In this document: positions 241-21,783 of the stretch, piece after piece
Numbering within the stretch: position 1 is the stretch's first letter
Layout: each line of letters begins with the position of its first letter
Source of the DNA: an uncultured archaeon
Lineage (GTDB): Archaea; Thermoproteota; Bathyarchaeia; Bathyarchaeales; Bathycorpusculaceae
DNA: 22,368 bases
Direction of reading: 5' to 3'
NCBI GenBank assembly: GCA_963810275.1
Contig: CAWENF010000016.1
Span: 1 to 22,368, forward strand
The notes under the pieces: generated by a model
The model's input: only the letters and a program-made list of their open reading frames with translations
Database searches by the model: none
Told to the model about the DNA's origin: nothing
Position numbers and translations under genes: made by a program

Positions 241-313
241 GGGCCGTTAATCTAGTTGGCTAGGACGTCGCCCTCACGCGCGAAGATTACTGGTTCAAAT
301 CCGGTATGGGCGA
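241..313 (+). pseudogene. Degenerate tRNA-Val(CAC)
   Basis: The cloverleaf is recognisable: GGGCCGT start, D-arm (ATCT..GGAC), anticodon loop CTCACGC (CAC at 275-277) and intact T-arm ACTGG-TTCAAAT-CCGGT. Defects: the 3' anticodon stem lacks one G (GCGA vs GGCGA), the acceptor stem has two G-G mismatches (ATGGGCG vs ACGGCCC) and there is an A10-C25 mismatch. TATA-like TTTTATGA lies at ~199-206 and a T-tract at 322-328. Confidence 0.8.
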
Positions 314-446
314 TTATTCTGTTTTTTTCCTAAGCAGGTTTGCGATTAAGTGTATCTTTGGGGATTGCTGGTGTAGCTTGCCAGTCACATATTTTTAAGT
401 TTACATAAACATCCATTTCATTGAGAAAGTTTTGGGAGGTGTATTT

Positions 447-623
447 TTGCAAGAAGATTTTAATTTGAGTGAAAAATTGCAGCGGATGGGGCAAGATCTC
501 AAAAATCAATGTAAAAACGCGGATGTAAATATTAAGACTTGGAATTTCGCTGTAGGCAAAGTAGATGACGAGTTTATTGTTGAAGTTAACGTAAAGTTGG
601 GTTTCAAAGCTAAACATTGTTAG
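447..623 (+). CDS. Small hypothetical protein (~58 aa)
   Basis: ORF 432-623. A strong SD (GGAGGTG, 435-441) points to a TTG start at 447. Composition is protein-like (helix, then beta-strand pattern KTWNFAVGKVDDEFIVEVNVKLGF). Confidence 0.6.
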   Translation: MQEDFNLSEKLQRMGQDLKNQCKNADVNIKTWNFAVGKVDDEFIVEVNVKLGFKAKHC

Positions 624-664: not shown

Positions 665-709
665 CTTGGCATGCTATCCATCACAACGAATTAACGAGGA
701 CTAATCAAA

Positions 710-900
710 ATGCCATCTAAAGAACTGAGGTCGATAAATTCGTGGCCATGAGTTCCAAACAAAATAGTGTCGAGTTAAATGCCTAAAAGACGGCGTGAAA
801 CTCAAGCTACGTATGCCAAGCCAACCAGCATGAATGAAATTGAAGCGTCTGTGGGGGGACGAAATCATAAAGCGGCTTCAAATGCGGATGAAATGCAAGA
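710..900 (+). pseudogene. rpl38e: Ribosomal protein L38e (eL38) pseudogene
   Basis: Joining three frames gives MPSK/TEVDKFVAMSSK/K*CRVKCLKDGVKLKLRMPSQPA*MKLKRLWGDEIIKRLQ. This matches the archaeal eL38 pattern (MP..I.d..kF..l...A..CRVK..kd.vKLKLRt...lyT.k......eii..l). It has two frameshifts and in-frame stops at 765 and 831. SD GAGGA at 696-700. Confidence 0.65.
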
Positions 901-1090
901 CCCAGAGGACCAAAGACTAAACCATTCTTTTCACGATAACTTTAATTGCATGAAATTTGTTGCAGCGTAAGCTTTGTTGCTCTGCAATAGATTTCTTGCA
1001 TATCTGAACTTCTTTTTAAAAGTATATAGAATGTCATGAAATCCACTTTACGTATTTTTGATCCCAAAACCATGAACAAACATCAGGTTT

Positions 1091-1124
1091 TTGGCCGTAT
1101 ACAAAAGCATCTCCAAAACACAGT
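1091..1124 (+). repeat. 28-bp element, copy 1
   Basis: TTGGCC-GTATACAAAAGCATC(1097-1111)-TCCA-AAACACAGT. Confidence 0.95.
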
Positions 1125-1159
1125 CCAAGTCGAAAAGTAGCTCTTAAAACACCTGGAGA

Positions 1160-1193
1160 TTTTCGAAAACAAGCGAAGCTTATATAATCACGC
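1160..1193 (+). promoter_or_regulatory. TTTTCGAAAA palindrome plus BRE/TATA (CGAAGCTTATATAAT) block downstream of copy 1
   Basis: 30/34 identical to the reverse complement of 7791-7824. Contains a canonical archaeal TATA (TTATATAA). Confidence 0.65.
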
Positions 1194-1556
1194 CCAGCTA
1201 AAAACCTCCATTAAACAACGACGTGCATCCAAGTCATGCGAACAACAAAATACGCGCCAGGCTAACCCTTAGTTAACCCAGAACCTTTGCCTAAACTATT
1301 ATCATAGCGTTTAGGGTGGAAAAATGCTGACTGTAAGCATTCCACACATGCAATAATTAGACTTTTATGGCGTTGCAAACTGGTTTTGGTTTGCTGGATT
1401 GCGATTTTAGGAGTATGTGGTAGTTTGCGGATAGCTTGATTGTTGTTGACGCCGTTATGGGAGTGGTTTTTCTGTGTTTTTGTTTTTAGTTTTTTGTATG
1501 TGATAGCGGAGTTTGCTGCGTTAAGCATTATGTCAGTTTATAATGAGCGAAATTTT

Positions 1557-1594
1557 TTCGAACGCTCACTTTTTACATTAAACAGTTAAAAAAT
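1557..1594 (+). repeat. Direct repeat A: TTCGAACG-N15-AAACAGTTAAAAAAT
   Basis: Same two boxes at identical spacing as 2672-2709. Confidence 0.75.
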
Positions 1595-1741
1595 TTAGTC
1601 ATCACATTTGTTAAATGCTTTAATAGATACATTTTCCATGAAAACCGGTCCCCAAAAGGTTTTAACAACCGAAAAACAAGCTTTAGCAAAAGTTTATTCC
1701 ACACGACTCACCTTAGTTAAACTGATTTTTAGGTGACGCCA

Positions 1742-2464
1742 ATGAAGGAACTCTACATTCCAAATATCCAAGATGCCCTCTTGGTAACTGACATCCAAAT
1801 CGACTTCCTACCAGGAGGTGCACTGCCCGTGGAGAACGGTGACGAAATCATCCCCGTCATAAACGAATACATCCATCACTTCAACAAAAACAAAGCCTCC
1901 GTAATCGCATCCCGTGATTGGCACCCCAGAAACCACATTTCATTTACCACTCGAGGTGGACCTTGGCCGCCTCACTGCGTTGCAGAGACAGCAGGCGCTA
2001 AGTTCAGCCCCGATCTAAAACTCCCTGACCACACGACAGTGATTTCTAAAGCCACAGAAGTTGACCATGAAGCATACTCTGCGTTTGATCACACAAACCT
2101 GGAGGAGACGCTAAGGCGTCTGGGTATTAAGCGGCTTTTTGTGACGGGGTTAGCAACTGATTACTGTGTAGTTAATACTGTTTTGGATGCACGCAAGCTT
2201 GGCTTTGAAGTAGTAGTTTTGATGGATGCCACTCTAGGTATAAACGTTAAAGAAGGCGACGTTGACCGTGCAATTCAAGCCATGGTGGAAATCGGCGCGG
2301 ATCAAGCTACTGACGAGGATTTCGCTGAGATTCAAGACCTATTGTCCACAGAGGAAACAGCCGCGGATTCATTAGCGGAAAAGCCATTGACATTGCATGA
2401 TGCTAAAAAGCAGGCGCGTATGCGTCCTAAAACTGCCAGCCGAAAGCTTAAGACGGAAAAGTAA
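1742..2464 (+). CDS. pncA: Nicotinamidase/pyrazinamidase (isochorismatase family)
   Basis: Motifs DIQIDFLPGGAL, SRDWHP, WPPHCV, ISKA and GLATDYCV give the Asp-Lys-Cys triad and Asp/His/His metal ligands. SD AGGTGA at 1731-1736 favours ATG 1742. Confidence 0.93.
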   Translation: MKELYIPNIQDALLVTDIQIDFLPGGALPVENGDEIIPVINEYIHHFNKNKASVIASRDWHPRNHISFTTRGGPWPPHCVAETAGAKFSPDLKLPDHTTVISKATEVDHEAYSAFDHTNLEETLRRLGIKRLFVTGLATDYCVVNTVLDARKLGFEVVVLMDATLGINVKEGDVDRAIQAMVEIGADQATDEDFAEIQDLLSTEETAADSLAEKPLTLHDAKKQARMRPKTASRKLKTEK

Positions 2465-2671
2465 ACGGTAGAATTTTGCCGAAGAACTGCGAACCCTAAA
2501 TAATCATTCCTTTGCTTTGGGTAGAAATATAGCTTAGGCTGTTTTTGGCGTGTTTTTATTATTTTAAAGGAGTTTTATCTGCTTATTTGGGTTTTTTCCC
2601 AGGATTTACTATGTTTTTCTGTTTTGGATTACTTTAATACCAGTATTTTTTCAGCGTTATTTTCGAAAATC

Positions 2672-2709
2672 TTCGAACGATTATTTTTTGAAGCAAACAG
2701 TTAAAAAAT
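2672..2709 (+). repeat. Direct repeat B: TTCGAACG-N15-AAACAGTTAAAAAAT
   Basis: Partner of 1557-1594. Preceded by the palindrome TTTTCGAAAA at 2660-2669. Confidence 0.75.
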
Positions 2710-2797
2710 GGCAACTATAATGTGGAATTTTATAGAGAAGAGTTCAAAAAATCCCCTTATCATACTCTTTTCGGTTAAACGAACAACGAATGGTGAA

Positions 2798-3211
2798 CTA
2801 TTCGCCCATAACTTGAATTAGAATGGTTCTCTCCCTAGGATATACGTCGGTTTCCACATAAAGCAGCGACTGCCAAGTCCCAAAAACAACTTCCCCCTCT
2901 ACGATCGGTAAGGTTTTGTCCGGTGGCAGAAGCATCGAGCGCAAATGGGAATGCGCGTTTGAAGGGTGATGATATTTGCCTTTTTTAGGTGCCAGTTGCT
3001 CCAGAAATATCTTGATGTCATCTAGCAGGGCGGGGTCGTTTTCGGTTAGAACCAAGATGCCTGTTGCATGTGGTGCGAAGACATGGGCAACGCCATTTTT
3101 TATCTGTGAAGCTTGAACCGTTTGATTCACTGTTTGGGAGAGGTCTATGAAATCGATTTCCCCTCTGGTTTTGATTTTGATTATTTTGTTCACAACTTTA
3201 AAATTCGCCAT
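2798..3211 (-). CDS. yjbQ: YjbQ/UPF0047 family protein (secondary thiamine-phosphate synthase-like)
   Basis: Motifs HATG..LTEN.P, Y.H..NAHSHLRS.L and GTWQ..Y.E.D..PR.R. The ORF track starts at GTG 3223; ATG 3211 is likely. Confidence 0.92.
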   Translation of the reverse strand: MANFKVVNKIIKIKTRGEIDFIDLSQTVNQTVQASQIKNGVAHVFAPHATGILVLTENDPALLDDIKIFLEQLAPKKGKYHHPSNAHSHLRSMLLPPDKTLPIVEGEVVFGTWQSLLYVETDVYPRERTILIQVMGE

Positions 3212-3274
3212 AGAATCATCCACATATAACTTATGACGTTTCGATAGAAAAACTTTGATTATTCTGTGTTTGAA

Positions 3275-3308
3275 ACTGTGTTTTGGTGATGCTTTTGTAT
3301 ACGGCCAA
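3275..3308 (-). repeat. 28-bp element, copy 2
   Basis: Reverse complement reads TTGGCC-GTATACAAAAGCATC(core 3288-3302)-ACCA-AAACACAGT; 33/34 identical to copy 1. Confidence 0.95.
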
Positions 3309-4687
3309 ACATAAAAAGCGCTTACGTACCTTGCACTTTGTTGCTAATTTAACCCTTTCAAACAGCTTAAACTCAACCAAGCCTTTAACCCAATTAGTTA
3401 CTCCCATTTTAGGAGATGAAGAAGGATGTTTTTTAGACTTCGATAAGCTACCTTTTTTAGTAAGAAAAAACTCGAGCATATCCTGGCCGATTATGACAAT
3501 ATTGTAGAACATTCCCACTGAAGTCTATAGTGACTGCGTAATGCTTTTTGAAACCTTAGAGGGTAACATTGTAACCAATCGTTGTCAAATGCACTAAGGA
3601 AGAACAGCGATATTTCTGGATGATAAAATACATATTTTTTAAAGAAATATTAGTTATAGCAAAAATTACCTTCTAACAAAGTTCATTATCATACAGTATA
3701 GTTATGTCAAAAAATAAACTCCCGAAAGCACAATGCTTAGTCTTCAGCAGCGAAAAGCCTGCACTGCACTCGCCATCTTAAGCTACTTTGAAACAACAAC
3801 CTACGCTTTGTATGCATTACTGCGGGTACCCGACATCAAATGAACATTGACAGACTAAAACCTCCGAAAATTAATATTGGAAACACAATCTGATATTTGC
3901 AGCACATTAACCTTCTGCAACTACAAACGCACAAATGTTTTTTTTGTTAAAAACACAACTAAAAGCAACAAACCATCGCTTTTGACCACAACAAATAAGC
4001 GTCAACGAAGTCTCAGACGAGCAAGTAAATCTGCCGCAAAATTACAAGCGTTTGTGCATGAAAAACAGTTGCCTTCTGATAGTACTCATTTGGCTCCCAA
4101 TTCACAGTCAACACAGGCGAAGCATTCTCAAGAGAATCTTAAGGAACTCCAAGGATGCTGAACGAGTTTCTCCTTTTTTGTTGCTGGTGGCATACCAGAC
4201 TCTGCAGGCGCTCGCTTAGGTCTCACCTGTTCTAACGGCAAAATCAGGCGTTTCAAAACCAACCTTTAGGGTTAATGCGGAGTCAAAGCAAAGAAAATAG
4301 TTGCCGTCGTACCCCACGCCTAATTATTCAACTTCCATCCAACTACACACTTTTTTAGCGCATTTCTGCTAAAACTGCAGGAAGTCTGGCTGCTTGAAGT
4401 ACACAATCTAAAGAGCCTTCAAAATTTTTCTTCCTGATTAAAACCTCCAAATCGGTTAATCGTAGGGGTTTTTTCAACAAAAAACCTTTAAACTGCACCG
4501 TTTTTAATTTAAAGACCGCACTCCACAGCTGTTTAGTTGCGAAATATAGTCAGCCAAAAACTGTTAGCACTTTTTCGTCTAAAAACAAAATCTAAAGACG
4601 TAAAAAAGACTTTAAATCTAAAATGCACTTTGGAAAAGGCTTATTAGGGTATGGGGTAGGTGCTTGGCATGGGGAATATCGGAGCCT

Positions 4688-4717
4688 CATATAAGTACTG
4701 TCGAAAATCTCCATGTG
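4688..4717 (-). promoter_or_regulatory. CACATGGAGATTTTCGA..CTTATATG block downstream of copy 3
   Basis: The reverse complement of 4701-4717 is 16/17 identical to 1150-1166 and is followed by TATA-like CTTATATG. Confidence 0.5.
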
Positions 4718-4830
4718 AAGCAAAACGCGAGTTTTTCGAGCCATCTTCGAGCTTAGGTTTGACTTTTTTTAGGAAAATTTATTTTTTTGAAAACTTTGAT
4801 GTTTTTGTTCTGGCTTATGGTTTTGATGGG

Positions 4831-4858
4831 GTGTTCGTTGATGCTTTTGTATACAAAA
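4831..4858 (-). repeat. 28-bp element, copy 3 (second box degenerate)
   Basis: Exact core GATGCTTTTGTATAC at 4840-4854, overlapping the palindrome TTTTGTATACAAAA (4845-4858). Confidence 0.9.
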
Positions 4859-5141
4859 ATTTTTGTGATAGTTTTATTGTATTTAGGCAACTTACCTTTT
4901 TTATGAGTGTTGTCTGTGGTTTGACGAATTTTTGTTCTCTTAGGGAACATAGATTGCTCTTATGGTTGTTGGATGTTTATTAAGCGGTAGCTTTTGTGGC
5001 TGTTACTGATGGGCTATATTGGCAATATTTTGTGTGGATTAATGTTGGAAAAATCGTGTTCGGTTGGTATGGTTGTATTGGTATTATCTTTCGGAGGCAT
5101 GTTCACCAGTGGGTTCTAGCTTCCACCAAGCGGATTCAGCG

Positions 5142-5177
5142 GTATACAAAAGCATCCCCCAAACATAGTTTTGCGCT
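5142..5177 (+). repeat. 28-bp element, copy 4
   Basis: GTATACAAAAGCATC(5142-5156)-CCCC-AAACATAGT-TTTGCGCT; identical to copy 6 apart from one T. Confidence 0.95.
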
Positions 5178-5221
5178 GGTGCTGTCAACAATTTTTAATT
5201 AAGCTAATTCCAAAATAGCAG

Positions 5222-5689
5222 TTGGAGCACAAAAATGTGAGCACCCCAGAAGACCGCATACGGCTAAGACGCTGGCGTAAACGAGGTTTCTACAGTGAAA
5301 CAGCCTTAGTCAAGCTACTCCAGAAAAAAGGCTACTTCGCTGTTCGCGTCCCTGTCTCTAACCCCAGCCTAAACCCCCTGCCGGACCTAATGGCGCGTCG
5401 TGGACCCCACGTCTACGCTTTTGAAGTTAAAAACGCCACCTACTACGCCTACTTTCCTCTTCCCCAAATCGACAAGTTGTTCCGTTTCCTTAACCAGTTC
5501 ATCCCCTCAGGCAACGAGTATAAGCATGCGGTGGTGGCGGCGCACTTGGGCAAACGGTGGTTATTTAAAGAAATCAGCTGGACCGATTGGCAGAAAGAAA
5601 AAATACCCGATAAAGTCCGCATCTTAAAGCGTGATCGCGGCAACCTGAACATGGACACTTGCTACCTTGAAGATGTTCCAGTCGAGTAA
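5222..5689 (+). CDS. Hjc/Hje-like (archaeal Holliday junction resolvase family) PD-(D/E)XK nuclease
   Basis: RG..SE..LVK.L...GY.AVRVP.S....PD..A.R....YAFEVK follows the Hjc catalytic pattern. The start may be GTG 5237 (GGAG at 5224-5227). Confidence 0.8.
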   Translation: MEHKNVSTPEDRIRLRRWRKRGFYSETALVKLLQKKGYFAVRVPVSNPSLNPLPDLMARRGPHVYAFEVKNATYYAYFPLPQIDKLFRFLNQFIPSGNEYKHAVVAAHLGKRWLFKEISWTDWQKEKIPDKVRILKRDRGNLNMDTCYLEDVPVE

Positions 5690-5759
5690 AGGCCTGTACC
5701 TAAAATCTATTATAAAGTAACCGGCAACTTGAAAACTATTCAGGTTTGTGGGTTTAACC

Positions 5760-5880
5760 ATGGCTAAAAACTGGTTGGTTCAGACCCAGTTACTTGAAAA
5801 AACCATTATGGTCGCGAAGAAACAATGCCTGTCCTAAAAGGAATAGACATGGCAATCAGTTGGGGTAGTTTTGCAGTTCA
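5760..5880 (+). pseudogene. N-terminal remnant of an ABC transporter ATP-binding protein (LolD/MacB-like)
   Basis: Joining two frames gives MAKNWLVQTQLLEK/HYGREETMPVLKGIDMAISWGSFAV, the typical pre-Walker-A segment. The Walker A motif and the rest are missing. Confidence 0.55.
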
Positions 5881-5925
5881 GTTAACCGCGATGTTGCTAT
5901 CCAAACCATAGAAACTACAGTTTAG

Positions 5926-6353
5926 GCGGTGGACTCAAGTTTGGTTATCTTCGGCCTTGACGGATTAATGGCACTGAACAGACGTATTTGGCCTCAACTT
6001 GGCAATCAATCATGCTTATGCCTCTTCTCAATTTAGCCTTCGCTATGGCTTGTGAGTTATATAATGATCTCAGCGGATAAGTAGCTTCAAGAATTCGGAA
6101 TGCGGGCGGTAGGTGTCAAACCCAAACAAATCAGTTCAGTGTCTGCGATTGAGTGCCTGCTGGTAATTGAATACAGTTTCGGGGTTTGTAGCTTTTGTAC
6201 ATGATAATTACTCTACTATTTTGATGGCGAACCCGATAATAGCCGCGTTATTGTAGGCTACATTGCAGTGTTGATTGGCGCAGTTGATAACTATTCATTT
6301 TAAGCTTTATTCCAGCTTATAGGCTTTCTAAAAATCATATTTTTGAATCATAG
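5926..6353 (+). pseudogene. C-terminal remnant of an FtsX-like ABC permease
   Basis: Fragments in different frames: YLASTWQSIMLMPLLNLAFA, QEFGMRAVGVKPKQI...IE (FtsX 'EfGilRAlG' motif), IITLL/ILMANPII and SFIPAYRLSK. Multiple stops and frameshifts. Confidence 0.6.
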
Positions 6354-7043
6354 TTTGCCGAATTTTTTAGGGGCGCACTTGACATTTTGCGTGTATAGTG
6401 GCAGTTGGCAAATAAAGTCTTGTAGCTGCAAAACCGAAACCACTGGCACCTCATAATAAAACTTGTATGCACCGGGCATTAGCGACAAAACGGCTGGAAC
6501 AAACAATGCAGAATCCCACTTGATGCACTCCAAATCTATTTTAGGGCTGGGCAGCGCATCAGCCAATGCCTCCACCCGCCGCGTCTGATCCTCCACGATT
6601 TTTCGCAACGCAGACGCAGCAATAGAATGCTGCCAACGCTTACAATCAATGCACACAACAAGAGGTTTTCGGCATCCTACAACGTCTATCTCGAAGCGTC
6701 GGCTGCCATGTTTAAAGCGTAGGTTGCGTCGTACGGTGTAGCCGTTGCTTTTAAGGGCGTAGGCGGCGATTTGTTCGAATTCTTGCCACCCCAGAAGATT
6801 GCTAACTGTCTGCATGTCGGCTCCGAGGTTGACGGCTTTGACGGCCAGTTTTATCCGGTTTTCTACGATGACCTCAATTTTTTCGTTACTTAAATTAATG
6901 AGTTTTTCTTTTTGCAGTTTTTGAAGCAATAGCCAATAAATGTCTTCTGGGAGTTTGGCGTCGATTTTGACATCTTCAATTAAAGCATCTGTTTTTTGGG
7001 TCTTTTTTAGAGTAGAAATTAACAATTTACGCTCAACACTCAA
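6348..7043 (-). CDS. Restriction endonuclease-like (Mrr/NERD-type PD-(D/E)XK) protein with N-terminal winged-helix-like region
   Basis: Motifs WQEFE, EIDVVG and IDCKRW. The N-terminal ~65 aa follows a wHTH-like helix/strand pattern. SD GGAGGTG at 7050-7056 favours TTG 7043 over GTG 7052. Confidence 0.8.
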   Translation of the reverse strand: MSVERKLLISTLKKTQKTDALIEDVKIDAKLPEDIYWLLLQKLQKEKLINLSNEKIEVIVENRIKLAVKAVNLGADMQTVSNLLGWQEFEQIAAYALKSNGYTVRRNLRFKHGSRRFEIDVVGCRKPLVVCIDCKRWQHSIAASALRKIVEDQTRRVEALADALPSPKIDLECIKWDSALFVPAVLSLMPGAYKFYYEVPVVSVLQLQDFICQLPLYTQNVKCAPKKFGKL

Positions 7044-7120
7044 CGAATGCACCTCCAGTTTTGGCAGTTTTCATGCAAAAAATGGCTAAAAATCCGTCAA
7101 GACGGCTGCCCGAATCGTAT

Positions 7121-7150
7121 CCGTATACAAAAGCATCAACAAAACACAGT
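7121..7150 (+). repeat. 28-bp element, copy 5
   Basis: CC-GTATACAAAAGCATC(7123-7137)-AACA-AAACACAGT. Confidence 0.95.
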
Positions 7151-7790
7151 TTTAAACGCCAACACTCAGACCCCGTGGTTTCAACCGCCACACCCCCAAC
7201 CTCCATCTCATCTTATATCGTCCCTTTTCCAATAAATCTTCCAGGCAATGCGAGTGAGAAAAACTTTTTCCCCAAATTTCCTGAACTGACCCCTTCTTCG
7301 CCGAACATGCCGCAAATTATCCCCTTCCGCTGTTGAAATTGCATTTTTCTTATCTTATTCAAGCAATCAACCCCCAACATTTTAACTATTTAATGTAAAA
7401 AGTGACCATTCGATGTTTTTTCGGTAATTGGAAAAAGCCATAGCAGATAACCTTGACAGGACAGCCCTAAAGAGTTATCTATTCAGCAACAGTTTGCGGC
7501 TCATCTGCTTAGCCGAGAGGTCCTCATATGTCAGTTAACCTTCCAACAGCAGACCTTCTGGTGGGTTCTGCTTGGTGGGGCGATTCTATCAGACTAAGAA
7601 GTCCTCCCCGCATCAAATTTAGCTCTTTTAGAGAACTAAAAAGCGACATCTTAAGTGATTCTGAAGTAAACTTTTTGTTTTGACTGTTAGTTCTACCCCA
7701 TCTCATGTTATCTGTCGCCGTTTTATTCTCCGCCGGGTAAGCGCTAAATGTATTGGCGGCATTATTGCTCAGAAAATTCTAATCACTCGT

Positions 7791-7824
7791 GCATGATTAT
7801 ATAAGGTTCGCTGTTTTTCGAAAA
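7791..7824 (-). promoter_or_regulatory. TTTTCGAAAA palindrome plus BRE/TATA (CGAACCTTATATAAT) block downstream of copy 6
   Basis: Reverse complement is 30/34 identical to 1160-1193, at nearly the same distance from the core. Confidence 0.65.
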
Positions 7825-7852
7825 AAATTATGTTTTCAACGATTTTTTTCTG

Positions 7853-7892
7853 AGCGCAAAAACTATGTTTGGGGGATGCTTTTGTATACGGC
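7853..7892 (-). repeat. 28-bp element, copy 6
   Basis: Reverse complement reads GCC-GTATACAAAAGCATC(core 7875-7889)-CCCC-AAACATAGT-TTTTGCGCT. Confidence 0.95.
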
Positions 7893-7941
7893 ACGATAGG
7901 CTTATCTTTAAAAAAGGCTAATCAGTACGTGGAGGCTTACC

Positions 7942-9468
7942 ATGACAAAACTTAATCAACCGATAAACAGCCGTGAAATGCGTGCCTTAGAAGTCAACGC
8001 CGAATACTTCGGCTTTAGCCTGTTGCAATTAATGGAGATGGCTGGTATGAGCATCGCCAGAGAAATCACGGCTCGATTCAGCCCCGACAAGAACGTTATT
8101 TTCTTCTGTGGGTTAGGCGGAAACGGCGGGGATGGTTTTGTGGCGGCGCGTCACCTTCTATCTGAAGGATTTGGTGTGACTGTTGTCTTGGTTGGCCGAG
8201 GACGTGACGTAAATCATGAATCCGCCTCCAAAAACTGGCATATTTTACAATCGATTAAAGCTAAATTGACCATCGTAGAGGTCACCGACAGCTCGGCAAT
8301 TCCACTGATGAAAGCCGATGTCGTCGTGGACGCATTATTGGGCACGGGTTCTAGAGGCAAACTCAAAGCTCCCGTAAGCAAAGTCGTCGAAGCCATAAAC
8401 GCCATGGGCGGCTTCAAAGTTGCCGTGGACGTCCCAACAGGTATCGACTCTGACTCTGGCGAAGTTTTGGGAATGGCTGTTAAGGCGGATTTGACCGTGA
8501 CTTTCCATCGAGCTAAAACTGGTTTGGAGAAGGCTAAAACCTATGCTGGGGAGATTGTTGTGGCACCGATTGGGTTACCCGCTGAGTTGGAGCGGTTTGT
8601 GGGTCCCGGCGACGTGCAGTTTGCTGCTAAACCCCGTAGCTCCACGGGGCATAAGGGCGACTTTGGGCGGCTTCTGGTCATAGGTGGCAGCGAAGTCTAT
8701 TCAGGAGCTCCTGCACTGGTTTCGTTGGCGGCTATGCGCACGGGTGTAGACCTTGTATATTTGGCATCACCTCAGTTGAATGCATACGAGATTTCCTCTA
8801 TAAGTCCAGACATGATAACCATAAAACTCGAAGGAAGAAACCTCAGTCTCAAAAACCTCGAAACGCTTAAGCCCTACATAAAAAACGTTGACGTTGTCGC
8901 TATAGGGTCTGGCTTGGGCTTGAATGCTGAAACTGAAAAGTTCGTGGAAGCATGCGTAATCGAAGTTGAACGTGCGGGCAAGCCGCTGCTTCTGGATGCG
9001 GATGGTTTGAAAGCTTTCTCGAAGTTCAAGCGTGCGTTGAAAGTTCCGCTGGTTTTGACGCCACATACAGGAGAATATGTAATACTGACAGGCAAAGCGC
9101 TCCCTGAAGTTTTAGAAAACAAAATCGAGGTAATCCAGAAAAACGCCAAGAAACTAAACGCAACTATCCTTGTTAAAGGAAAAACCGACATAATCTGCGA
9201 TTCAAAACGAGCGAAGCTTAATTTCACTGGTAACCCGGGTATGACTGTGGGCGGTACAGGGGATGTTTTAAGCGGCGTCGTGGCTGGATTGATGGCACAG
9301 CATGCTTCGCCCTTTGAGGCAGCTGTTGCGGGGGCGTTTGTGAACGGAGCTGCGGGCGACTTTGTTGCGTCCGAAATCGGCTACCACATGGTTGCAACTG
9401 ACCTCATTAATTGGATTCCGCAGGTGCTGGCTGACCCGATAAGTCACTTAAAGGTGAAACAGCTATAG
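7942..9468 (+). CDS. nnr: Bifunctional NAD(P)H-hydrate epimerase/dehydratase (YjeF_N + carbohydrate kinase-like)
   Basis: Motifs LMEMAG, CGLGGNGGDG, DALLGTG, AVDVPTG, HKGDFG, GGS..YSGA, LDADG, LTPH.GE and GGTGDVLSG. SD GGAGG. Confidence 0.96.
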   Translation: MTKLNQPINSREMRALEVNAEYFGFSLLQLMEMAGMSIAREITARFSPDKNVIFFCGLGGNGGDGFVAARHLLSEGFGVTVVLVGRGRDVNHESASKNWHILQSIKAKLTIVEVTDSSAIPLMKADVVVDALLGTGSRGKLKAPVSKVVEAINAMGGFKVAVDVPTGIDSDSGEVLGMAVKADLTVTFHRAKTGLEKAKTYAGEIVVAPIGLPAELERFVGPGDVQFAAKPRSSTGHKGDFGRLLVIGGSEVYSGAPALVSLAAMRTGVDLVYLASPQLNAYEISSISPDMITIKLEGRNLSLKNLETLKPYIKNVDVVAIGSGLGLNAETEKFVEACVIEVERAGKPLLLDADGLKAFSKFKRALKVPLVLTPHTGEYVILTGKALPEVLENKIEVIQKNAKKLNATILVKGKTDIICDSKRAKLNFTGNPGMTVGGTGDVLSGVVAGLMAQHASPFEAAVAGAFVNGAAGDFVASEIGYHMVATDLINWIPQVLADPISHLKVKQL

Positions 9469-20147: not shown

Positions 20148-20936
20148 CTATTTGACTTCGTTTTGGTCGATTCTTTGTGCCATTTCCGAAACGATTCTTG
20201 TAAATGGGTGGTCAGGCTTATCCTGTACAAAAATGAAGTTGCCCTCGGCGCGTAGCACCTCGCAGAAACAGGGTACGATGCCCAGAAGCGGCACTTGGTA
20301 ATCGGCTTTGATTTTGGCTGACATTTCGGCTTTTCTTGATGTAGCAGAGGGATCAAGCACTTTGTTTAAGACAAGACCGGTTTTCTTTTCAAACAAGTTG
20401 TAGAGTTCTGAGAGCATTCGTTTAGTGCCGTCGACATCGGAACGGTCGCCGGTGGTTGCGACTACTACAAAGTCGGCTGCAACTATGGCGTTGATTGAGC
20501 TGTATTGGAGTCCTGGGCTGGTGTCAAAGACTAGGTAGTCAAATTTTTGGTCACGAAGCAACGTCTCCCTTAGCGCCAAAAGCCGTCCTAATGCACGCAT
20601 TTCCCATTTTCTGTCTTTACTTGACATGTCTCGTATCGCTTCGGTCGTGGGGTTTGCTATGCACGCGTAGAGTTTTCCTCCGTTGACGCGGTCGCTTAAA
20701 TCAACCAGTCCCTTGTTGATTTCGCAGTTGTTGTTTAAGTAATCGTTTAGGTAGAACTCGGGGTTTTGGACTTTTAGGATGGCAAACAGGCTTGGCGCCC
20801 GAAAGTCCAAGTCAAATACGCAAACCTTTTTTCCCATCTTCGCAAGTGTTGCAGCCAAACTAACGGACATAGAGGTTTTGCCGGTTCCGCCTTTATAGGA
20901 ATGTACAGCAATAATTTTTGACGCCATATCCATCAA
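20148..20936 (-). CDS. ParA/MinD family ATPase
   Basis: Deviant Walker A HSYKGGTGKT, A' FDLDFRAP and Walker B FDTSPG. The start overlaps the upstream gene's stop. Confidence 0.92.
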   Translation of the reverse strand: MMDMASKIIAVHSYKGGTGKTSMSVSLAATLAKMGKKVCVFDLDFRAPSLFAILKVQNPEFYLNDYLNNNCEINKGLVDLSDRVNGGKLYACIANPTTEAIRDMSSKDRKWEMRALGRLLALRETLLRDQKFDYLVFDTSPGLQYSSINAIVAADFVVVATTGDRSDVDGTKRMLSELYNLFEKKTGLVLNKVLDPSATSRKAEMSAKIKADYQVPLLGIVPCFCEVLRAEGNFIFVQDKPDHPFTRIVSEMAQRIDQNEVK

Positions 20937-21286
20937 CTCTGTGACTCCCGATCTACATAGAAATACGCTTTCCGCCCTTGGCGCTCCTTCTTAAGATAAC
21001 CCATGATCACCAACTGATTAAGATATGCACTTTCCACTGCACGCGCACGTTCCGTTTGCTCAGCAATCTCCTCAGCAGTAGCACGCCCACTACGGCAAAT
21101 AGTCATAGCAGTTTTACGCAAATGATCAGGCATAGACAACAATGTCATAACATCCAAGGAAGCATCAGGAAGAATTGCTCCAATCTTGGGATTCCCACCA
21201 CCATTGTTCCTTTGGAGCTCAATCATAACCTCCATCTTAGCATTCAACCTTTCGAGGTTCTCCTCAATTTTCTCCAAAATACTCAA
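20933..21286 (-). CDS. Coiled-coil + helix-turn-helix DNA-binding protein
   Basis: N-terminal heptads (ILEKIEENLERLNAKMEVM), then wHTH ATAEEIA..T.RARAVES.YLNQLV.MGYL.K.R.GR..YF. TTG 21286 is the probable start (the ORF extends to 21325). Confidence 0.85.
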   Translation of the reverse strand: MSILEKIEENLERLNAKMEVMIELQRNNGGGNPKIGAILPDASLDVMTLLSMPDHLRKTAMTICRSGRATAEEIAEQTERARAVESAYLNQLVIMGYLKKERQGRKAYFYVDRESQS

Positions 21287-21489
21287 AGGCTTCCTACTAG
21301 ACAAATTAGTACGAATCAAACACAATTCCCCGAACTGTTTTTCACATATACACTTAATGAGTACATATCAAAATACAGTTTATTAAGTCTTGCGAAACTA
21401 AAATACATATTCAAAAAACAACAAATATACAACAAATGTCAAAAAATATTAGGAATTGATAAAATAATGTTGGGTATAAAATTGGGCGG

Positions 21490-21783
21490 TTAGTAGGGGG
21501 CGGGCGCTTGGTTCCGAGCTTCCTCTACTATTGGCAAAACCTGTTTGAGTTCTTTGAAGTATTTTAGGACGGTTATGCCTCGTTGGGTTACTGCGAAGAC
21601 TACACGTCGTTTGCCGATGACGCGTTCTTCCACTAAGTCCTGTTTTATGAGGAAGTCAAGATATTCTTTGAGGACGCTGCAGTTAACGTTGGCTTTATAC
21701 ATTACGTGGGTTAGTTTTAGGGGACCACGGTGTGCAAGTACGGTTAGGATGTCCACATACATTTCGAGTTTGGATCGACGCAC
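21490..21783 (-). CDS. Winged-helix DNA-binding protein (HTH_45/DUF4364, ArnR1-like)
   Basis: RRSKLE..VDIL..L......T.VMYKAN.N...LK.YL..L....L and VT.RG. SD GAGGAG. Confidence 0.9.
   Translation of the reverse strand: MRRSKLEMYVDILTVLAHRGPLKLTHVMYKANVNCSVLKEYLDFLIKQDLVEERVIGKRRVVFAVTQRGITVLKYFKELKQVLPIVEEARNQAPAPY

What the first reader, a model, noticed from the sequence alone, without database searches (positions are those of the whole stretch)
1091..7892. Six-copy non-palindromic 28-bp DNA element with an invariant 15-bp core, confined to a gene-poor 6.8-kb segment
Seen: GTATACAAAAGCATC occurs exactly at 1097(+), 3288(-), 4840(-), 5142(+), 7123(+) and 7875(-). In five of six copies it is followed by N4-AAACAYAGT. 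All copies are non-coding, irregularly spaced (0.3-2.2 kb), and I found none in the remaining 14.5 kb. The core is invariant although neighbouring non-coding DNA is full of decayed genes, which implies selection or recent spread. It does not resemble an ORB, a dif site, attC or a CRISPR repeat. Inference: a sequence-specific protein-binding array. Candidates are iterons of a non-Orc1/Cdc6 origin, a centromere-like (parS/SegB/AspA-type) region, polar Ter-like sites, recombination sites, or an orientation-independent regulator site (four copies are ~50-80 bp from the starts of yjbQ, the Hjc-like gene, the REase-like gene and nnr).
Basis: partly seen in the sequence, partly recalled or inferred. 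Interest (0 to 1): 0.9.

Follow-up and report, generated by a model that had tools for sequence, protein, structure and literature searches.

The report
Conserved promoter-upstream regulator site in Bathyarchaeia
A 31-base DNA word repeated six times here is most likely the docking site of a still unidentified gene regulator, kept in front of the same small set of genes in many uncultured Bathyarchaeia, so it is a real conserved control element and not a replication origin, centromere or mobile repeat.

Summary
GTATACAAAAGCATC occurs exactly six times in the window, at the stated places (0.07 expected). It is the invariant 5' half of a 31-bp non-palindromic element. It is not confined to this segment: a PWM finds 11 sites in the 2.26-Mb genome, five of them on other contigs. 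The element is conserved in 24 of 24 same-genus genomes and in four families of the order. It sits at the same places in front of orthologous genes: yjbQ, an Hjc-like/ABC operon, a wHTH-nuclease gene (F1), nnr, pncA, gdh and mazG. It lies directly upstream of BRE/TATA-like boxes, its core about 50-80 nt from start codons. The six copies cluster because their target genes are neighbours in a hub kept in at least 70 related assemblies. Best reading (0.65): the upstream operator (UAS-like) of a lineage-specific transcription factor. The binder is unknown; F1 is a weak candidate. Not supported: inverton, MITE, restriction site, structured RNA or small ORF. Weak or disfavoured: origin, centromere. 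It is a new member of a known kind, and the conserved non-coding promoter modules in the hub remain unexplained.

The parts
1097..1127 (+). Element copy c1 (core 1097-1111). It is followed by promoter-like blocks B and C and then pncA.
   Evidence: PWM score 41.2 bits; same arrangement in G014 (L043).
3272..3302 (-). Element copy c2 (core 3288-3302). It points at yjbQ; the core 3' end is 77 nt from the inferred ATG at 3211.
   Evidence: 48.7 bits. An element within 200 nt before yjbQ, in the same orientation, is seen in 5 of the 9 loci compared (WIN, L042, L045, L046, L047); L043 has one inside its over-long yjbQ ORF call.
4824..4854 (-). Element copy c3 (core 4840-4854; 3' half degenerate). 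It is the divergent partner of c4 and is followed by the B-like promoter block.
   Evidence: 32.2 bits. A partner about 230-270 bp from the Hjc-operon copy is seen in many of the 80 loci.
5142..5172 (+). Element copy c4 (core 5142-5156). It points at the Hjc-like gene; the core end is 81 nt from the inferred GTG at 5237.
   Evidence: 46.2 bits. An orthologous copy lies before the Hjc-like gene in 7 of 7 same-genus loci.
7123..7153 (+). Element copy c5 (core 7123-7137). It lies upstream of the F1 gene in reverse orientation, 80 nt from the inferred TTG at 7043.
   Evidence: 49.4 bits. 70 of 80 F1 loci have both this proximal copy and the distal inverted partner.
7859..7889 (-). Element copy c6 (core 7875-7889). 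It is the distal inverted partner of c5, lies 53 nt from the nnr ATG in reverse orientation, and points at block B.
   Evidence: 46.2 bits.
1160..1193 (+). Block B, a BRE/TATA-like promoter (TTTTCGAAAA..AGCGAAgCTTATATAATCA) about 63 nt after c1.
   Evidence: (I5). The block is specific to this contig in the genome.
7791..7824 (-). Block B about 65 nt after c6, pointing towards c5 and F1.
   Evidence: It is forward in 61 of 70 loci and reversed in 0 of 70.
4665..4750 (-). B-like promoter block after c3 (CTCGAAG..CTCGAAAAAC..GATTTTCGACAGTACTTATATGAGGCTCCGATATTCCCCATGCC).
   Evidence: At least 80% column conservation in 56 sequences. The TATA-to-ATG string was found in 46 of 56.
1529..1595 (+). 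Block C (..TCGAAcGcTCACTTTTTACATTAAACAGTTAAAA), the second promoter-like block, about 140 nt before pncA.
   Evidence: (I1, D3).
7380..7442 (-). Block C in the c6-c5 spacer, pointing towards F1.
   Evidence: It is forward in 53 of 70 loci.
2470..2710 (+). Degenerate third B'/C' pair in the pncA/yjbQ convergent spacer.
   Evidence: (D3, I14).
4960..5141 (.). Conserved non-coding spacer between the divergent pair c3/c4. It carries short conserved blocks (CTGGTG repeats, GTAATAC, CAACCA and others on the minus strand).
   Evidence: No consensus RNA fold and no consistently open frame. One contig of an RNA library covers 5013-5152.
1742..2464 (+). Isochorismatase-family gene (pncA-like).
   Evidence: Pfam PF00857, 2.1e-35. 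A contig of the RNA library covers 1737-2142.
2798..3211 (-). yjbQ (UPF0047).
   Evidence: Pfam PF01894, 2.5e-31. Start placed by alignment with orthologues.
5237..5689 (+). Hjc-like PD-ExK nuclease gene. In relatives it is the first gene of an Hjc-ABC ATPase-ABC permease operon.
   Evidence: Pfam PF01870, 1.6e-11.
5875..6347 (+). Remnant of the FtsX/MacB-type ABC permease (matches residues about 460-621 of 624). The ATPase gene and the N-terminal two thirds are lost.
   Evidence: tblastn.
6348..7043 (-). F1, a wHTH + PD-(D/E)xK (Mrr_cat/NERD) protein of 231 aa. It is the hub's constant gene.
   Evidence: AF2 model with pLDDT 90.7. Found in 156 of 201 genomes of the class.
7942..9468 (+). nnr (YjeF_N + carbohydrate kinase). 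Its TATA-like box is preceded by GATAGGCTTATC.

Best explanation
The 15-mer is the invariant 5' half of a 31-bp, directional, non-palindromic cis-element: GTATACAAAAGCATC-A-[AC]-C-[AC]-AAAC-A-C-A-N-TTTT. It reads as two imperfect 12-bp direct repeats, TAtACAAAAG and TCaACAAAAC. I read it as the upstream operator (UAS-like site) of a lineage-specific transcription factor. The factor would dock directly upstream of the BRE/TATA box of about eleven promoters in this genome and modulate, most likely activate, recruitment of TBP/TFB. Six copies stand together because their targets are neighbours in a conserved hub: yjbQ, the Hjc-like(-ABC) operon, the wHTH-nuclease gene F1, nnr-tsr3-macro, pncA and three non-coding promoter modules. 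Shown: the element, its genome-wide count, its conservation at orthologous positions, its distance and orientation relative to start codons, and the fixed hub architecture. Inferred: the BRE/TATA assignments and transcription starts, that a protein binds, the sign of regulation, and the binder. F1 is the only DNA-binding-type gene constantly beside the sites. I give it about 0.2-0.25.
For: (1) Non-random and small in number: 6 exact copies against 0.07 expected. A 31-bp PWM gives exactly 11 hits above 18 bits in 2.26 Mb, all at 32 bits or more; the reversed PWM gives 0. (2) Selection, not recent spread: 24 of 24 same-genus genomes have 2-13 copies at up to 1 mismatch, and the reversed-pattern control gives 0-1. 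The exact 13-mer is found in families f1 26/27, f11 9/9, f7 7/7 and f2 1/1, but in only 3 of about 150 genomes of other orders. In 336 instances, positions 16-31, which were not used for selection, still carry information, while the flanks carry none. (3) Orthologous placement. An element lies within 200 nt before yjbQ in 5 of 9 loci compared (a sixth, L043, has it inside an over-long ORF call). It lies before the Hjc-like gene in 7 of 7 genus loci and before the ABC operon in a second family. It lies before nnr in 7 of 7 and before F1 in 7 of 7 genus loci. Of 80 F1 loci, 78 carry the element, and its core starts 62-127 nt before the F1 start. (4) Promoter geometry. A conserved BRE/TATA-like box follows the element: CGAAACATTTTTCA at yjbQ, CAACAATTTTTAT at Hjc, CTTATCTTTTAA at nnr, GGCAAATCTTATCTAGCC at gdh and CTTTAAAA at mazG. 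Of 45 non-hub sites, 24 have an ORF start within 150 nt. Twenty of these point at the gene, with the core end 15-112 nt from the start (16 of them 49-85 nt), and 6 point away. (5) It is accessory, not the core promoter. This genome's gdh keeps GGCAAGTCTTATCTAGCC but has no element, whereas 10 relatives have one there. (6) The site drifts with lineage, as transcription-factor sites do: GGATAC... in family f7 and TTGGAAAAGCATA before the Hjc-like gene in family f6. (7) Known archaeal activators (Ptr2, LysM, Ss-LrpB) bind just upstream of the BRE (passages of PMC2995911).
Against: No binding or expression data exist. All TATA boxes and transcription starts are inferred from sequence. The site is not a dyad, unlike most wHTH or Lrp operators. 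Distance to the TATA-like box varies from about 6 to 55 nt, and both orientations occur, which is looser than the 'highly constrained' position reported for Ptr2-type sites. Five of the 11 sites in this genome have no ORF start within 150 nt on the side they point to (c1, c3, C1, C5, C19:78791). Three hub copies precede non-coding promoter modules whose products are unknown. As for F1 as the binder: its predicted recognition helix (residues 33-45) varies within the genus while the DNA core is invariant. F1 is class-wide (156/201) while the element is limited to part of one order. F1 loci of other orders and of family f7 have no element upstream.
Confidence: 0.65

Rival explanations
1. The element is the recognition or loading site of the F1 wHTH-PD-(D/E)xK protein acting on DNA itself (site-specific nicking, cutting or DNA remodelling), not a transcription-factor operator. 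The hub would then be F1's field of action.
For: F1 is flanked by an inverted pair of elements in 70 of 80 loci at fixed distances. The catalytic E..D..D-x-K residues are invariant in 24 sequences. The model shows a wHTH plus a nuclease fold, with Can2/Card1/VC1899-type nuclease domains as the best structural matches. A second nuclease gene (Hjc-like) is linked to F1 across the order. The element begins with the palindrome GTATAC.
Against: The dispersed copies sit at promoter-typical distances before metabolic genes. The F1 wHTH helix 3 is variable although the site is invariant. F1 is class-wide but the element is not. GTATAC is not avoided in the genome: 270 observed against 302 expected.
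Confidence: 0.1
2. The hub is an Orc-independent replication origin or a centromere-like region. Its elements would be initiator or segregation-protein sites, and the dispersed copies secondary.
For: Inverted element pairs bracket conserved non-coding DNA of 0.27 kb and 0.6-0.9 kb in many species. An HTH + ParA-like operon lies in the same contig at 20148-21325 and directly beside the hub in 10 of 80 loci.
Against: The orc1/cdc6 genes are 0.4-1.2 Mb from the hub in three one-contig genomes. ParA/HTH adjacency is found in only 10 of 80 loci. Five of 11 sites are dispersed, most of them upstream of genes. The spacers hold strong BRE/TATA-like promoters, not an obvious AT-rich unwinding element. 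GC skew sampled at 20 places of one closed genome shows no polarity anywhere, so it cannot decide.
Confidence: 0.07
3. The element is an upstream promoter element dedicated to non-coding transcripts, or part of such RNAs. The protein-gene associations would be secondary.
For: Three hub copies (c1, c3, c6) are each followed at 60-150 nt by a conserved BRE/TATA-like block with no conserved ORF behind it. Several dispersed copies are followed by G-poor, A/C-rich tracts without an ORF. One contig of an RNA library covers 5013-5152 between c3 and c4.
Against: Rfam gives no hit apart from a sub-threshold tRNA-like match elsewhere. RNAalifold gives no consensus structure for the two best-conserved stretches on the strands tested (-0.15 and 0.0 kcal/mol). 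The sequence between blocks B and C is not conserved. Most non-hub sites precede protein genes at a fixed distance. The single RNA-library contig does not show transcription.
Confidence: 0.1
4. The copies are terminal inverted repeats of a MITE or other mobile element, or the arms of an invertible promoter switch.
For: c5 and c6 are 33-bp inverted repeats, 88% complementary, around a 0.75-kb segment that holds a promoter.
Against: Positions are fixed relative to orthologous genes in at least 70 related assemblies, while the internal sequence has diverged. I see no direct repeat flanking c5/c6 in the sequence. The element family has only 11 members and no shared interior. Block B is forward in 61 of 70 loci and reversed in 0 of 70. 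No recombinase or transposase family gene belongs to the conserved hub. DNA contigs of three runs cross c5 in the reference arrangement and no joints were reported.
Confidence: 0.02

Closest known systems
Upstream activator sites of archaeal Lrp-type activators (Ptr2, LysM, Ss-LrpB)
   Same: A short specific site lies a few base pairs to a few tens of base pairs upstream of the BRE/TATA. Additional upstream sites occur, and a site lies at the candidate regulator's own gene (PMC2995911, passages read; geometry here).
   Different: Those sites are dyad-symmetric dimer sites with a tightly fixed position. This element is a 31-bp directional imperfect direct repeat, its distance to the TATA-like box varies, and no Lrp-type gene is linked to it. 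Binding and activation are not shown here.
Origin recognition boxes (ORB) at archaeal oriC
   Same: Repeated elements of about 30 bp, some in inverted pairs around non-coding DNA and clustered at one locus.
   Different: The locus is not next to orc1/cdc6. Copies also occur before dispersed genes. Lack of sequence likeness to the ORB consensus is my recollection and was not tested with a model.
Invertible promoter switches (fimS/hin type, Bacteroides invertons)
   Same: Inverted repeats flank a sub-kilobase segment that contains a promoter.
   Different: Only one orientation is seen in 70 loci, and no tyrosine or serine recombinase lies in the conserved hub. That these systems need such recombinases is recalled.
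Archaeal SegAB / AspA-ParB-ParA centromere sites
   Same: A clustered array of specific sites, with an HTH + ParA-like operon in the same contig.
   Different: The operon adjoins the hub in only 10 of 80 loci, and the sites also sit at promoter distance from unrelated genes. The properties of SegB and AspA are recalled, not tested.
Small bacterial metabolic regulons with a hub at the regulator gene (e.g. NrtR, NiaR of NAD metabolism; recalled)
   Same: About ten operators lie before salvage and repair genes (pncA-like, nnr, a macro-domain gene downstream, a PNP-family phosphorylase/PRTase pair, mazG, gdh), densest around one locus.
   Different: No homologue of those regulators was looked for or seen. 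The functional theme is my reading of Pfam names, and the effector is unknown.

Membership tests
Archaeal upstream activator/operator site (transcription-factor binding site) | Lies in non-coding DNA at a constrained distance upstream of promoters or start codons | tested here: met
   Window: the core is 53-81 nt from four start codons. Non-hub: 24 of 45 sites have an ORF start within 150 nt, 16 of the 20 same-orientation cases at 49-85 nt. BRE/TATA-like boxes follow (inferred).
Archaeal upstream activator/operator site (transcription-factor binding site) | Kept at orthologous genes across species while the flanks diverge (phylogenetic footprint) | tested here: met
Archaeal upstream activator/operator site (transcription-factor binding site) | Bound by a specific regulator that changes transcription | not testable with these tools
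   Needs EMSA, DAP-seq or in-vitro transcription. Only one RNA-library run held any of the stretch, as two contigs.
Archaeal upstream activator/operator site (transcription-factor binding site) | Dyad symmetry typical of dimeric HTH or Lrp operators | tested here: not met
   Only GTATAC is palindromic. The 31-bp profile is directional.
oriC / ORB array | Adjacent to an orc1/cdc6 gene | tested here: not met
   Cdc6_C matches lie at G003 1.48 and 2.17 Mb (hub 0.96-0.97 Mb), G014 0.52 and 1.37 Mb (hub 1.90 Mb), and G040 0.11 and 1.61 Mb (hub 1.20-1.21 Mb).
oriC / ORB array | Strand-composition switch at the locus | tested here: inconclusive
   Twenty 20-kb samples of G003 give GC skew within about +/-0.04 (one at -0.09) and no polarity anywhere, the cdc6 regions included.
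MITE / IS terminal inverted repeats | Target-site duplication, shared interior, and variable insertion sites between relatives | tested here: not met
   No flanking direct repeat at c5/c6. The interiors are unrelated. Positions are fixed in at least 70 loci.
Invertible promoter (inverton) | Both orientations of the segment occur | tested here: not met
   Block B is forward in 61 of 70 loci, reversed in 0 of 70, and undetected in 9. Block C is forward in 53 of 70, with reverse-strand matches of a short AT-rich probe in 6 of 70. No joints appear in the laid contigs.
Centromere-like partition site (parS / SegB / AspA type) | Linked to a ParA-type ATPase operon with a site-specific DNA-binding partner | tested here: not met
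   The ParA-like and TrmB-like HTH genes lie within 6 kb of F1 in 10 of 80 loci. In the window they are 12 kb away.
PD-(D/E)xK nuclease superfamily (for F1, 6348-7043-) | Pfam nuclease-domain match above the cut-off, conserved D..(D/E)-x-K, and the fold | tested here: met
   Mrr_cat 31.8 bits (cut-off 21), NERD 27.2 (22.1) and UPF0102 26.0 (23.6). E118, D120, D133 and K135 are invariant. AF2 model with pLDDT 90.7; Foldseek top hits are nuclease-domain proteins, E 5e-5 to 1e-3 with low TM of 0.3-0.4.
Structured non-coding RNA (for the conserved spacers) | Consensus secondary structure with covariation, or an Rfam match | tested here: not met
   Rfam at E<=1 gives only a tRNA-like match at 241-313. 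RNAalifold gives -0.15 kcal/mol with 4 pairs and 0 compensatory changes, and 0.0 on both strands for the second stretch.

The most novel reading that the evidence does not exclude
The hub is a dedicated DNA 'organ' of this Bathyarchaeia order. F1 is a single-copy wHTH-PD-(D/E)xK protein present across the whole class. In this reading F1 itself reads the 31-bp elements, as a nuclease-fold transcription factor or a site-specific nicking/initiator protein. The inverted and divergent element pairs would bracket conserved non-coding promoter modules (A-B-C units), whose transcripts or transcription control F1, the Hjc-like resolvase and a salvage/repair regulon, or would mark an Orc-independent origin.
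Probability: 0.12. Interest if true: 0.8.

Novelty: new member of a known kind. Interest (0 to 1): 0.42.

Why it matters
No transcription-factor regulon has been described for Bathyarchaeia in the full-text library searched. These archaea are abundant and largely uncultured. This element gives a concrete, testable 31-bp bait and a defined target set: yjbQ, an Hjc-like/ABC operon, nnr, a pncA-like gene, gdh, mazG, a PNP-family phosphorylase/PRTase pair and nth. The same targets recur across four families. The element could therefore be used to fish out the regulator and to read the physiological state of these organisms from metatranscriptomes. It also flags a class-wide, uncharacterised wHTH-nuclease gene and a set of deeply conserved non-coding promoter modules with no known product.

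Tried and rejected
Inverton: rejected. Block B is never reversed in 70 loci.

MITE: rejected. Positions are fixed, there is no target-site duplication and no shared interior.

Conserved small ORFs in the c6-c5 spacer: none. The peptide clusters were only translations of the DNA blocks in several frames.

Leaderless ORF after the B-like TATA: ORFs are 3-60 aa, mostly 4.

Structured RNA: no Rfam hit and no RNAalifold consensus. For the c3/c4 spacer only the minus strand was folded.

Coding potential of the c3/c4 spacer: the median longest open stretch is 50-56 aa in a median of 367 nt, on either strand.

Restriction-site reading of GTATAC: the hexamer is not avoided.

Membrane-anchored wHTH family (C27:77695-78231) as a self-regulated binder: the element lies upstream in 1 of 30 loci.

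wHTH gene between F1 and the Hjc-like gene in family f11: no match in this genome with that single query.

GC skew as an origin test: uninformative.

PDB sequence search for F1: nothing meaningful.

RNA evidence: only one RNA-library run held any of the stretch. It covers 1737-2142 and 5013-5152. The rest of 900-8100 has no cover in that run, which shows nothing either way. The DNA runs gave partial cover only.

Supplementary files of papers were not consulted. Only passages of PMC2995911 were read. Other papers were seen as search listings and abstracts only.

Kin caveat: the 80 loci and the genus genomes are relatives, and three loci (L063, L065, L066) come from one assembly. The counts are therefore not independent events.

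Rows dropped: 10 of 80 loci lacked one of the two F1-side copies under my distance limits and were left out. 24-25 of 80 lacked the Hjc-side copy or enough flank and were left out, and 5 more of the 55 were not sent. The two 1-mismatch matches that are not real copies (C20:45221, and low-scoring ones) were kept in the tables, but C20:45221 is not counted among the 11.

Full report
OBSERVATION. GTATACAAAAGCATC occurs exactly at 1097+, 3288-, 4840-, 5142+, 7123+ and 7875-. It occurs nowhere else in the window even with two mismatches. Shuffles give 0.07 expected, and 0 of 100 reach six. Aligning the copies shows a sharp 5' edge, one or two weakly conserved bases before the core, and a conserved tail in five of six copies. 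From 336 instances collected in related loci, the full element is 31 bp: GTATACAAAAGCATC-A-[AC]-C-[AC]-AAAC-A-C-A-N-TTTT. Positions 16-31 were not used to select the instances. They still carry 0.5-1.9 bits each, while both flanks carry none. Only GTATAC is palindromic. I read the whole as two imperfect 12-bp direct repeats.

NOT CONFINED TO THE SEGMENT. The window is a whole 22,368-bp contig of a 2.26-Mb, 28-contig genome. A scan for up to 3 mismatches and a 31-bp PWM agree on eleven sites. Six are here, and five are on other contigs: C1:68997-, C5:51288+, C19:78791+, C27:77616- and C19:101951-. All score 32 bits or more, nothing lies between 18 and 32 bits, and the reversed PWM gives no hit. 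Six of eleven sites within 6.8 kb of 2.26 Mb is a strong cluster, but the family is dispersed.

CONSERVATION. All 24 same-genus genomes searched carry 2-13 copies at up to 1 mismatch, and the reversed-pattern control gives 0-1. Each of the better assembled genomes has a cluster of 4-7 copies within 6-10 kb. The exact 13-mer ATACAAAAGCATC is found in families f1 (26/27), f11 (9/9), f7 (7/7) and f2 (1/1) of the order. It is not found in f6 (0/4) or f10 (0/2), and in only 3 of about 150 genomes of other orders of the class. Family f7 uses GGATAC... Family f6 has TTGGAAAAGCATA at the corresponding place before its Hjc-like gene. Homologous proteins and contigs are labelled Bathyarchaeia/Bathyarchaeota by their sources.

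WHAT THE COPIES SIT NEXT TO. Pfam identifies an isochorismatase-family gene (pncA-like, 1742-2464+), yjbQ/UPF0047 (2798-3211-), an Hjc-like gene (5237-5689+), a wHTH + Mrr_cat/NERD gene called F1 here (6348-7043-) and nnr (7942-9468+). The core lies 77 nt from the yjbQ start, 81 nt from hjc, 80 nt from F1 and 53 nt from nnr. I compared seven same-genus loci and two loci of another family. The element stands before the Hjc-like gene, F1 and nnr in 7 of 7 genus loci. It stands within 200 nt before yjbQ in 5 of the 9 loci, and a sixth locus has it inside an over-long ORF call. It stands before the ABC operon in the second family. In relatives the Hjc-like gene is followed by an ABC ATPase and a FtsX/MacB-type permease. 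The window keeps only a C-terminal remnant of the permease at 5875-6347. That is the real 'decayed gene'.

PROMOTER GEOMETRY. Between the element and each start codon there is a conserved BRE/TATA-like box:
- CGAAACATTTTTCA at yjbQ
- CAACAATTTTTAT at hjc
- GATAGGCTTATCTTTTAA at nnr
- GGCAAATCTTATCTAGCC at gdh
- CTTTAAAA at mazG

These come, and the assignments are my inference. The core would then centre roughly 55-80 nt before the transcription start, directly upstream of the BRE. Reviews place archaeal activators such as Ptr2, LysM and Ss-LrpB at that position (PMC2995911, passages).

NON-HUB SITES. Outside the hub I examined 45 sites: 5 in this genome and 40 in other genus genomes. By my ORF filter 37 are intergenic. 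Twenty-four have an ORF start within 150 nt; 20 of these point at the gene, with the core end 15-112 nt away (16 of them 49-85 nt), and 6 point away. Recurrent targets are listed below.
- glutamate dehydrogenase: 10 loci
- mazG: 4 loci
- the S19/L2 ribosomal-protein gene side: 4 loci
- DUF47/CofD: 3 loci
- endonuclease III with a divergent RHH gene: 2 loci
- a PNP-family phosphorylase with a PRTase (read as mtaP-apt): 2 loci
- an AAA_18 kinase: 2 loci

This genome's gdh keeps its promoter box but has no element. The element is therefore an accessory module and not the core promoter.

THE HUB. A profile of F1 recovered 80 loci from species-representative genomes. Of these, 78 carry the element. 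Seventy have both a proximal copy and an inverted distal copy. The proximal copy's core starts 62-127 nt before F1, mostly 93-110 nt. The distal copy lies 650-930 nt upstream. Another copy lies about 3.84 kb downstream, before the convergent Hjc operon. It often has a divergent partner about 230-270 bp further on. Between the F1-side pair lie two promoter-like blocks. Block B is TTTTCGAAAA..AGCGAAcCTTATATAA, and block C is ..TCGAAtGgTCAcTTTTTACATTAAAtAGTTAAAA. Both point at F1. Block B is forward in 61 of 70 loci and never reversed; block C is forward in 53 of 70. The DNA between the blocks is not conserved and holds no conserved ORF. In the window the same A-B-C order recurs three times (c1, c3 and c6). 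Blocks B and C occur nowhere else in the genome. Two stretches are conserved at 80% or more of columns in 56 sequences: the spacer between c3 and c4 (4960-5141) and the B-like block (4665-4750). Neither yields a consensus RNA fold. What these modules produce is unexplained.

WHO BINDS. F1 is the only DNA-binding-type gene constantly beside the sites. Its model (pLDDT 90.7) shows an N-terminal winged helix and a PD-(D/E)xK domain, and the catalytic residues are invariant.
- Its helix 3 varies within the genus although the DNA core does not.
- It is a single-copy gene in 156 of 201 genomes of the class, far beyond the element's range.
- F1 loci of other orders and of family f7 have no element upstream.

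A membrane-anchored wHTH gene with an element upstream in this genome is not so arranged elsewhere: 1 of 30 loci. The binder therefore remains unknown.

RIVALS.
- Origin: orc1/cdc6 genes are far from the hub in three one-contig genomes, and GC skew is uninformative.
- Centromere: the HTH + ParA-like operon of the contig adjoins the hub in only 10 of 80 loci.
- Inverton and MITE: rejected.
- Restriction site: GTATAC is not avoided.
- RNA-level function: no structural support. One RNA-library contig (5013-5152) lies in the conserved c3/c4 spacer and another covers pncA. These are weak hints only.

VERDICT. The finding is real and under selection. Its most likely nature is ordinary in kind: the upstream operator of a small, lineage-specific regulon. 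The cluster is explained by conserved gene neighbourhood. The motif is not in the searched literature, and no paper combining Bathyarchaeia, transcription factor and regulon was found. Two things remain unusual: the deeply conserved non-coding promoter modules, and the constant association with a class-wide wHTH-nuclease gene.

Noticed in passing
window 241-313 (+): tRNA-like sequence just below Rfam's threshold (27.8 bits against 29). ARAGORN does not call it, and by eye its acceptor arms do not pair. It may be a tRNA remnant or pseudogene near the contig start.
   Followed up: partly
window 5875-6347 (+): C-terminal remnant of the FtsX/MacB-type ABC permease. The ABC ATPase gene and most of the permease, which follow the Hjc-like gene in relatives, have been lost here.
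   Followed up: yes
window 4960-5141: Non-coding spacer between the divergent element pair. Short blocks with conserved spacing are kept in 50+ related assemblies (CTGGTG repeats, GTAATAC, CAACCA, TTTAGACTACACTAAGC-like on the minus strand). No RNA fold and no open frame. One contig of an RNA library, with adapters at both ends, covers 5013-5152.
   Followed up: partly
window 4665-4750 (-), 1160-1193 (+), 7791-7824 (-): Strong BRE/TATA-like blocks preceded by a TTTTCGAAAA or CTCGAAAAAC motif. They are conserved from upstream of the TATA to the presumed start site, which is unusual for a plain promoter. TTTTCGAAAA occurs only 6 times in the genome, 3 of them here.
   Followed up: partly
window 7895-7916; L137 and other gdh loci: A shared CTTATCT box (GATAGGCTTATCTTT at nnr, GGCAAATCTTATCTAGCC at gdh) lies between the element and the start codon. 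It is either the TATA variant of these promoters or a second factor's site.
   Followed up: no
window 20148-21325 (-) and 21490-21783 (-): A TrmB-like HTH gene overlaps a ParA/MinD-like ATPase gene by 4 nt, and an HTH_45 gene lies beside them. This block lies directly beside the hub in 10 of 80 related loci.
   Followed up: partly
window 6348-7043 (-): The wHTH-PD-(D/E)xK gene is a near-universal single-copy gene of the class (156 of 201 genomes; 109 of 121 high-quality ones). It has no solved relative by sequence. Within the order it is linked to the Hjc-like gene.
   Followed up: yes
window 429-614 (+) and 679-893 (+): Small conserved ORFs shared with related hubs. The second matches a 94-aa ORF of relatives in two frames, which suggests a frameshift here.
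   Followed up: no
L187 5038-6599 (family f11): In family f11 the F1 gene, a 98-aa HTH_24 wHTH gene and the Hjc-like gene lie head to tail like an operon. The small wHTH gene was not found in this genome with that single query.
   Followed up: partly
G000:C27:77695-78231 and paralogues: A family of membrane-anchored wHTH proteins. In the genomes sampled there are typically 4-10 copies per genome in families f1 and f7 and 1-3 in most other families of the order.
   Followed up: partly
L001 2155-2940 (-), L046 8599-9315, L049 5127-5720: Phage_integrase-type or integrase-like ORFs lie within 0.4-1 kb of element copies in three loci. Only the first is a clear Pfam match. No att-like relation was seen.
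   Followed up: no
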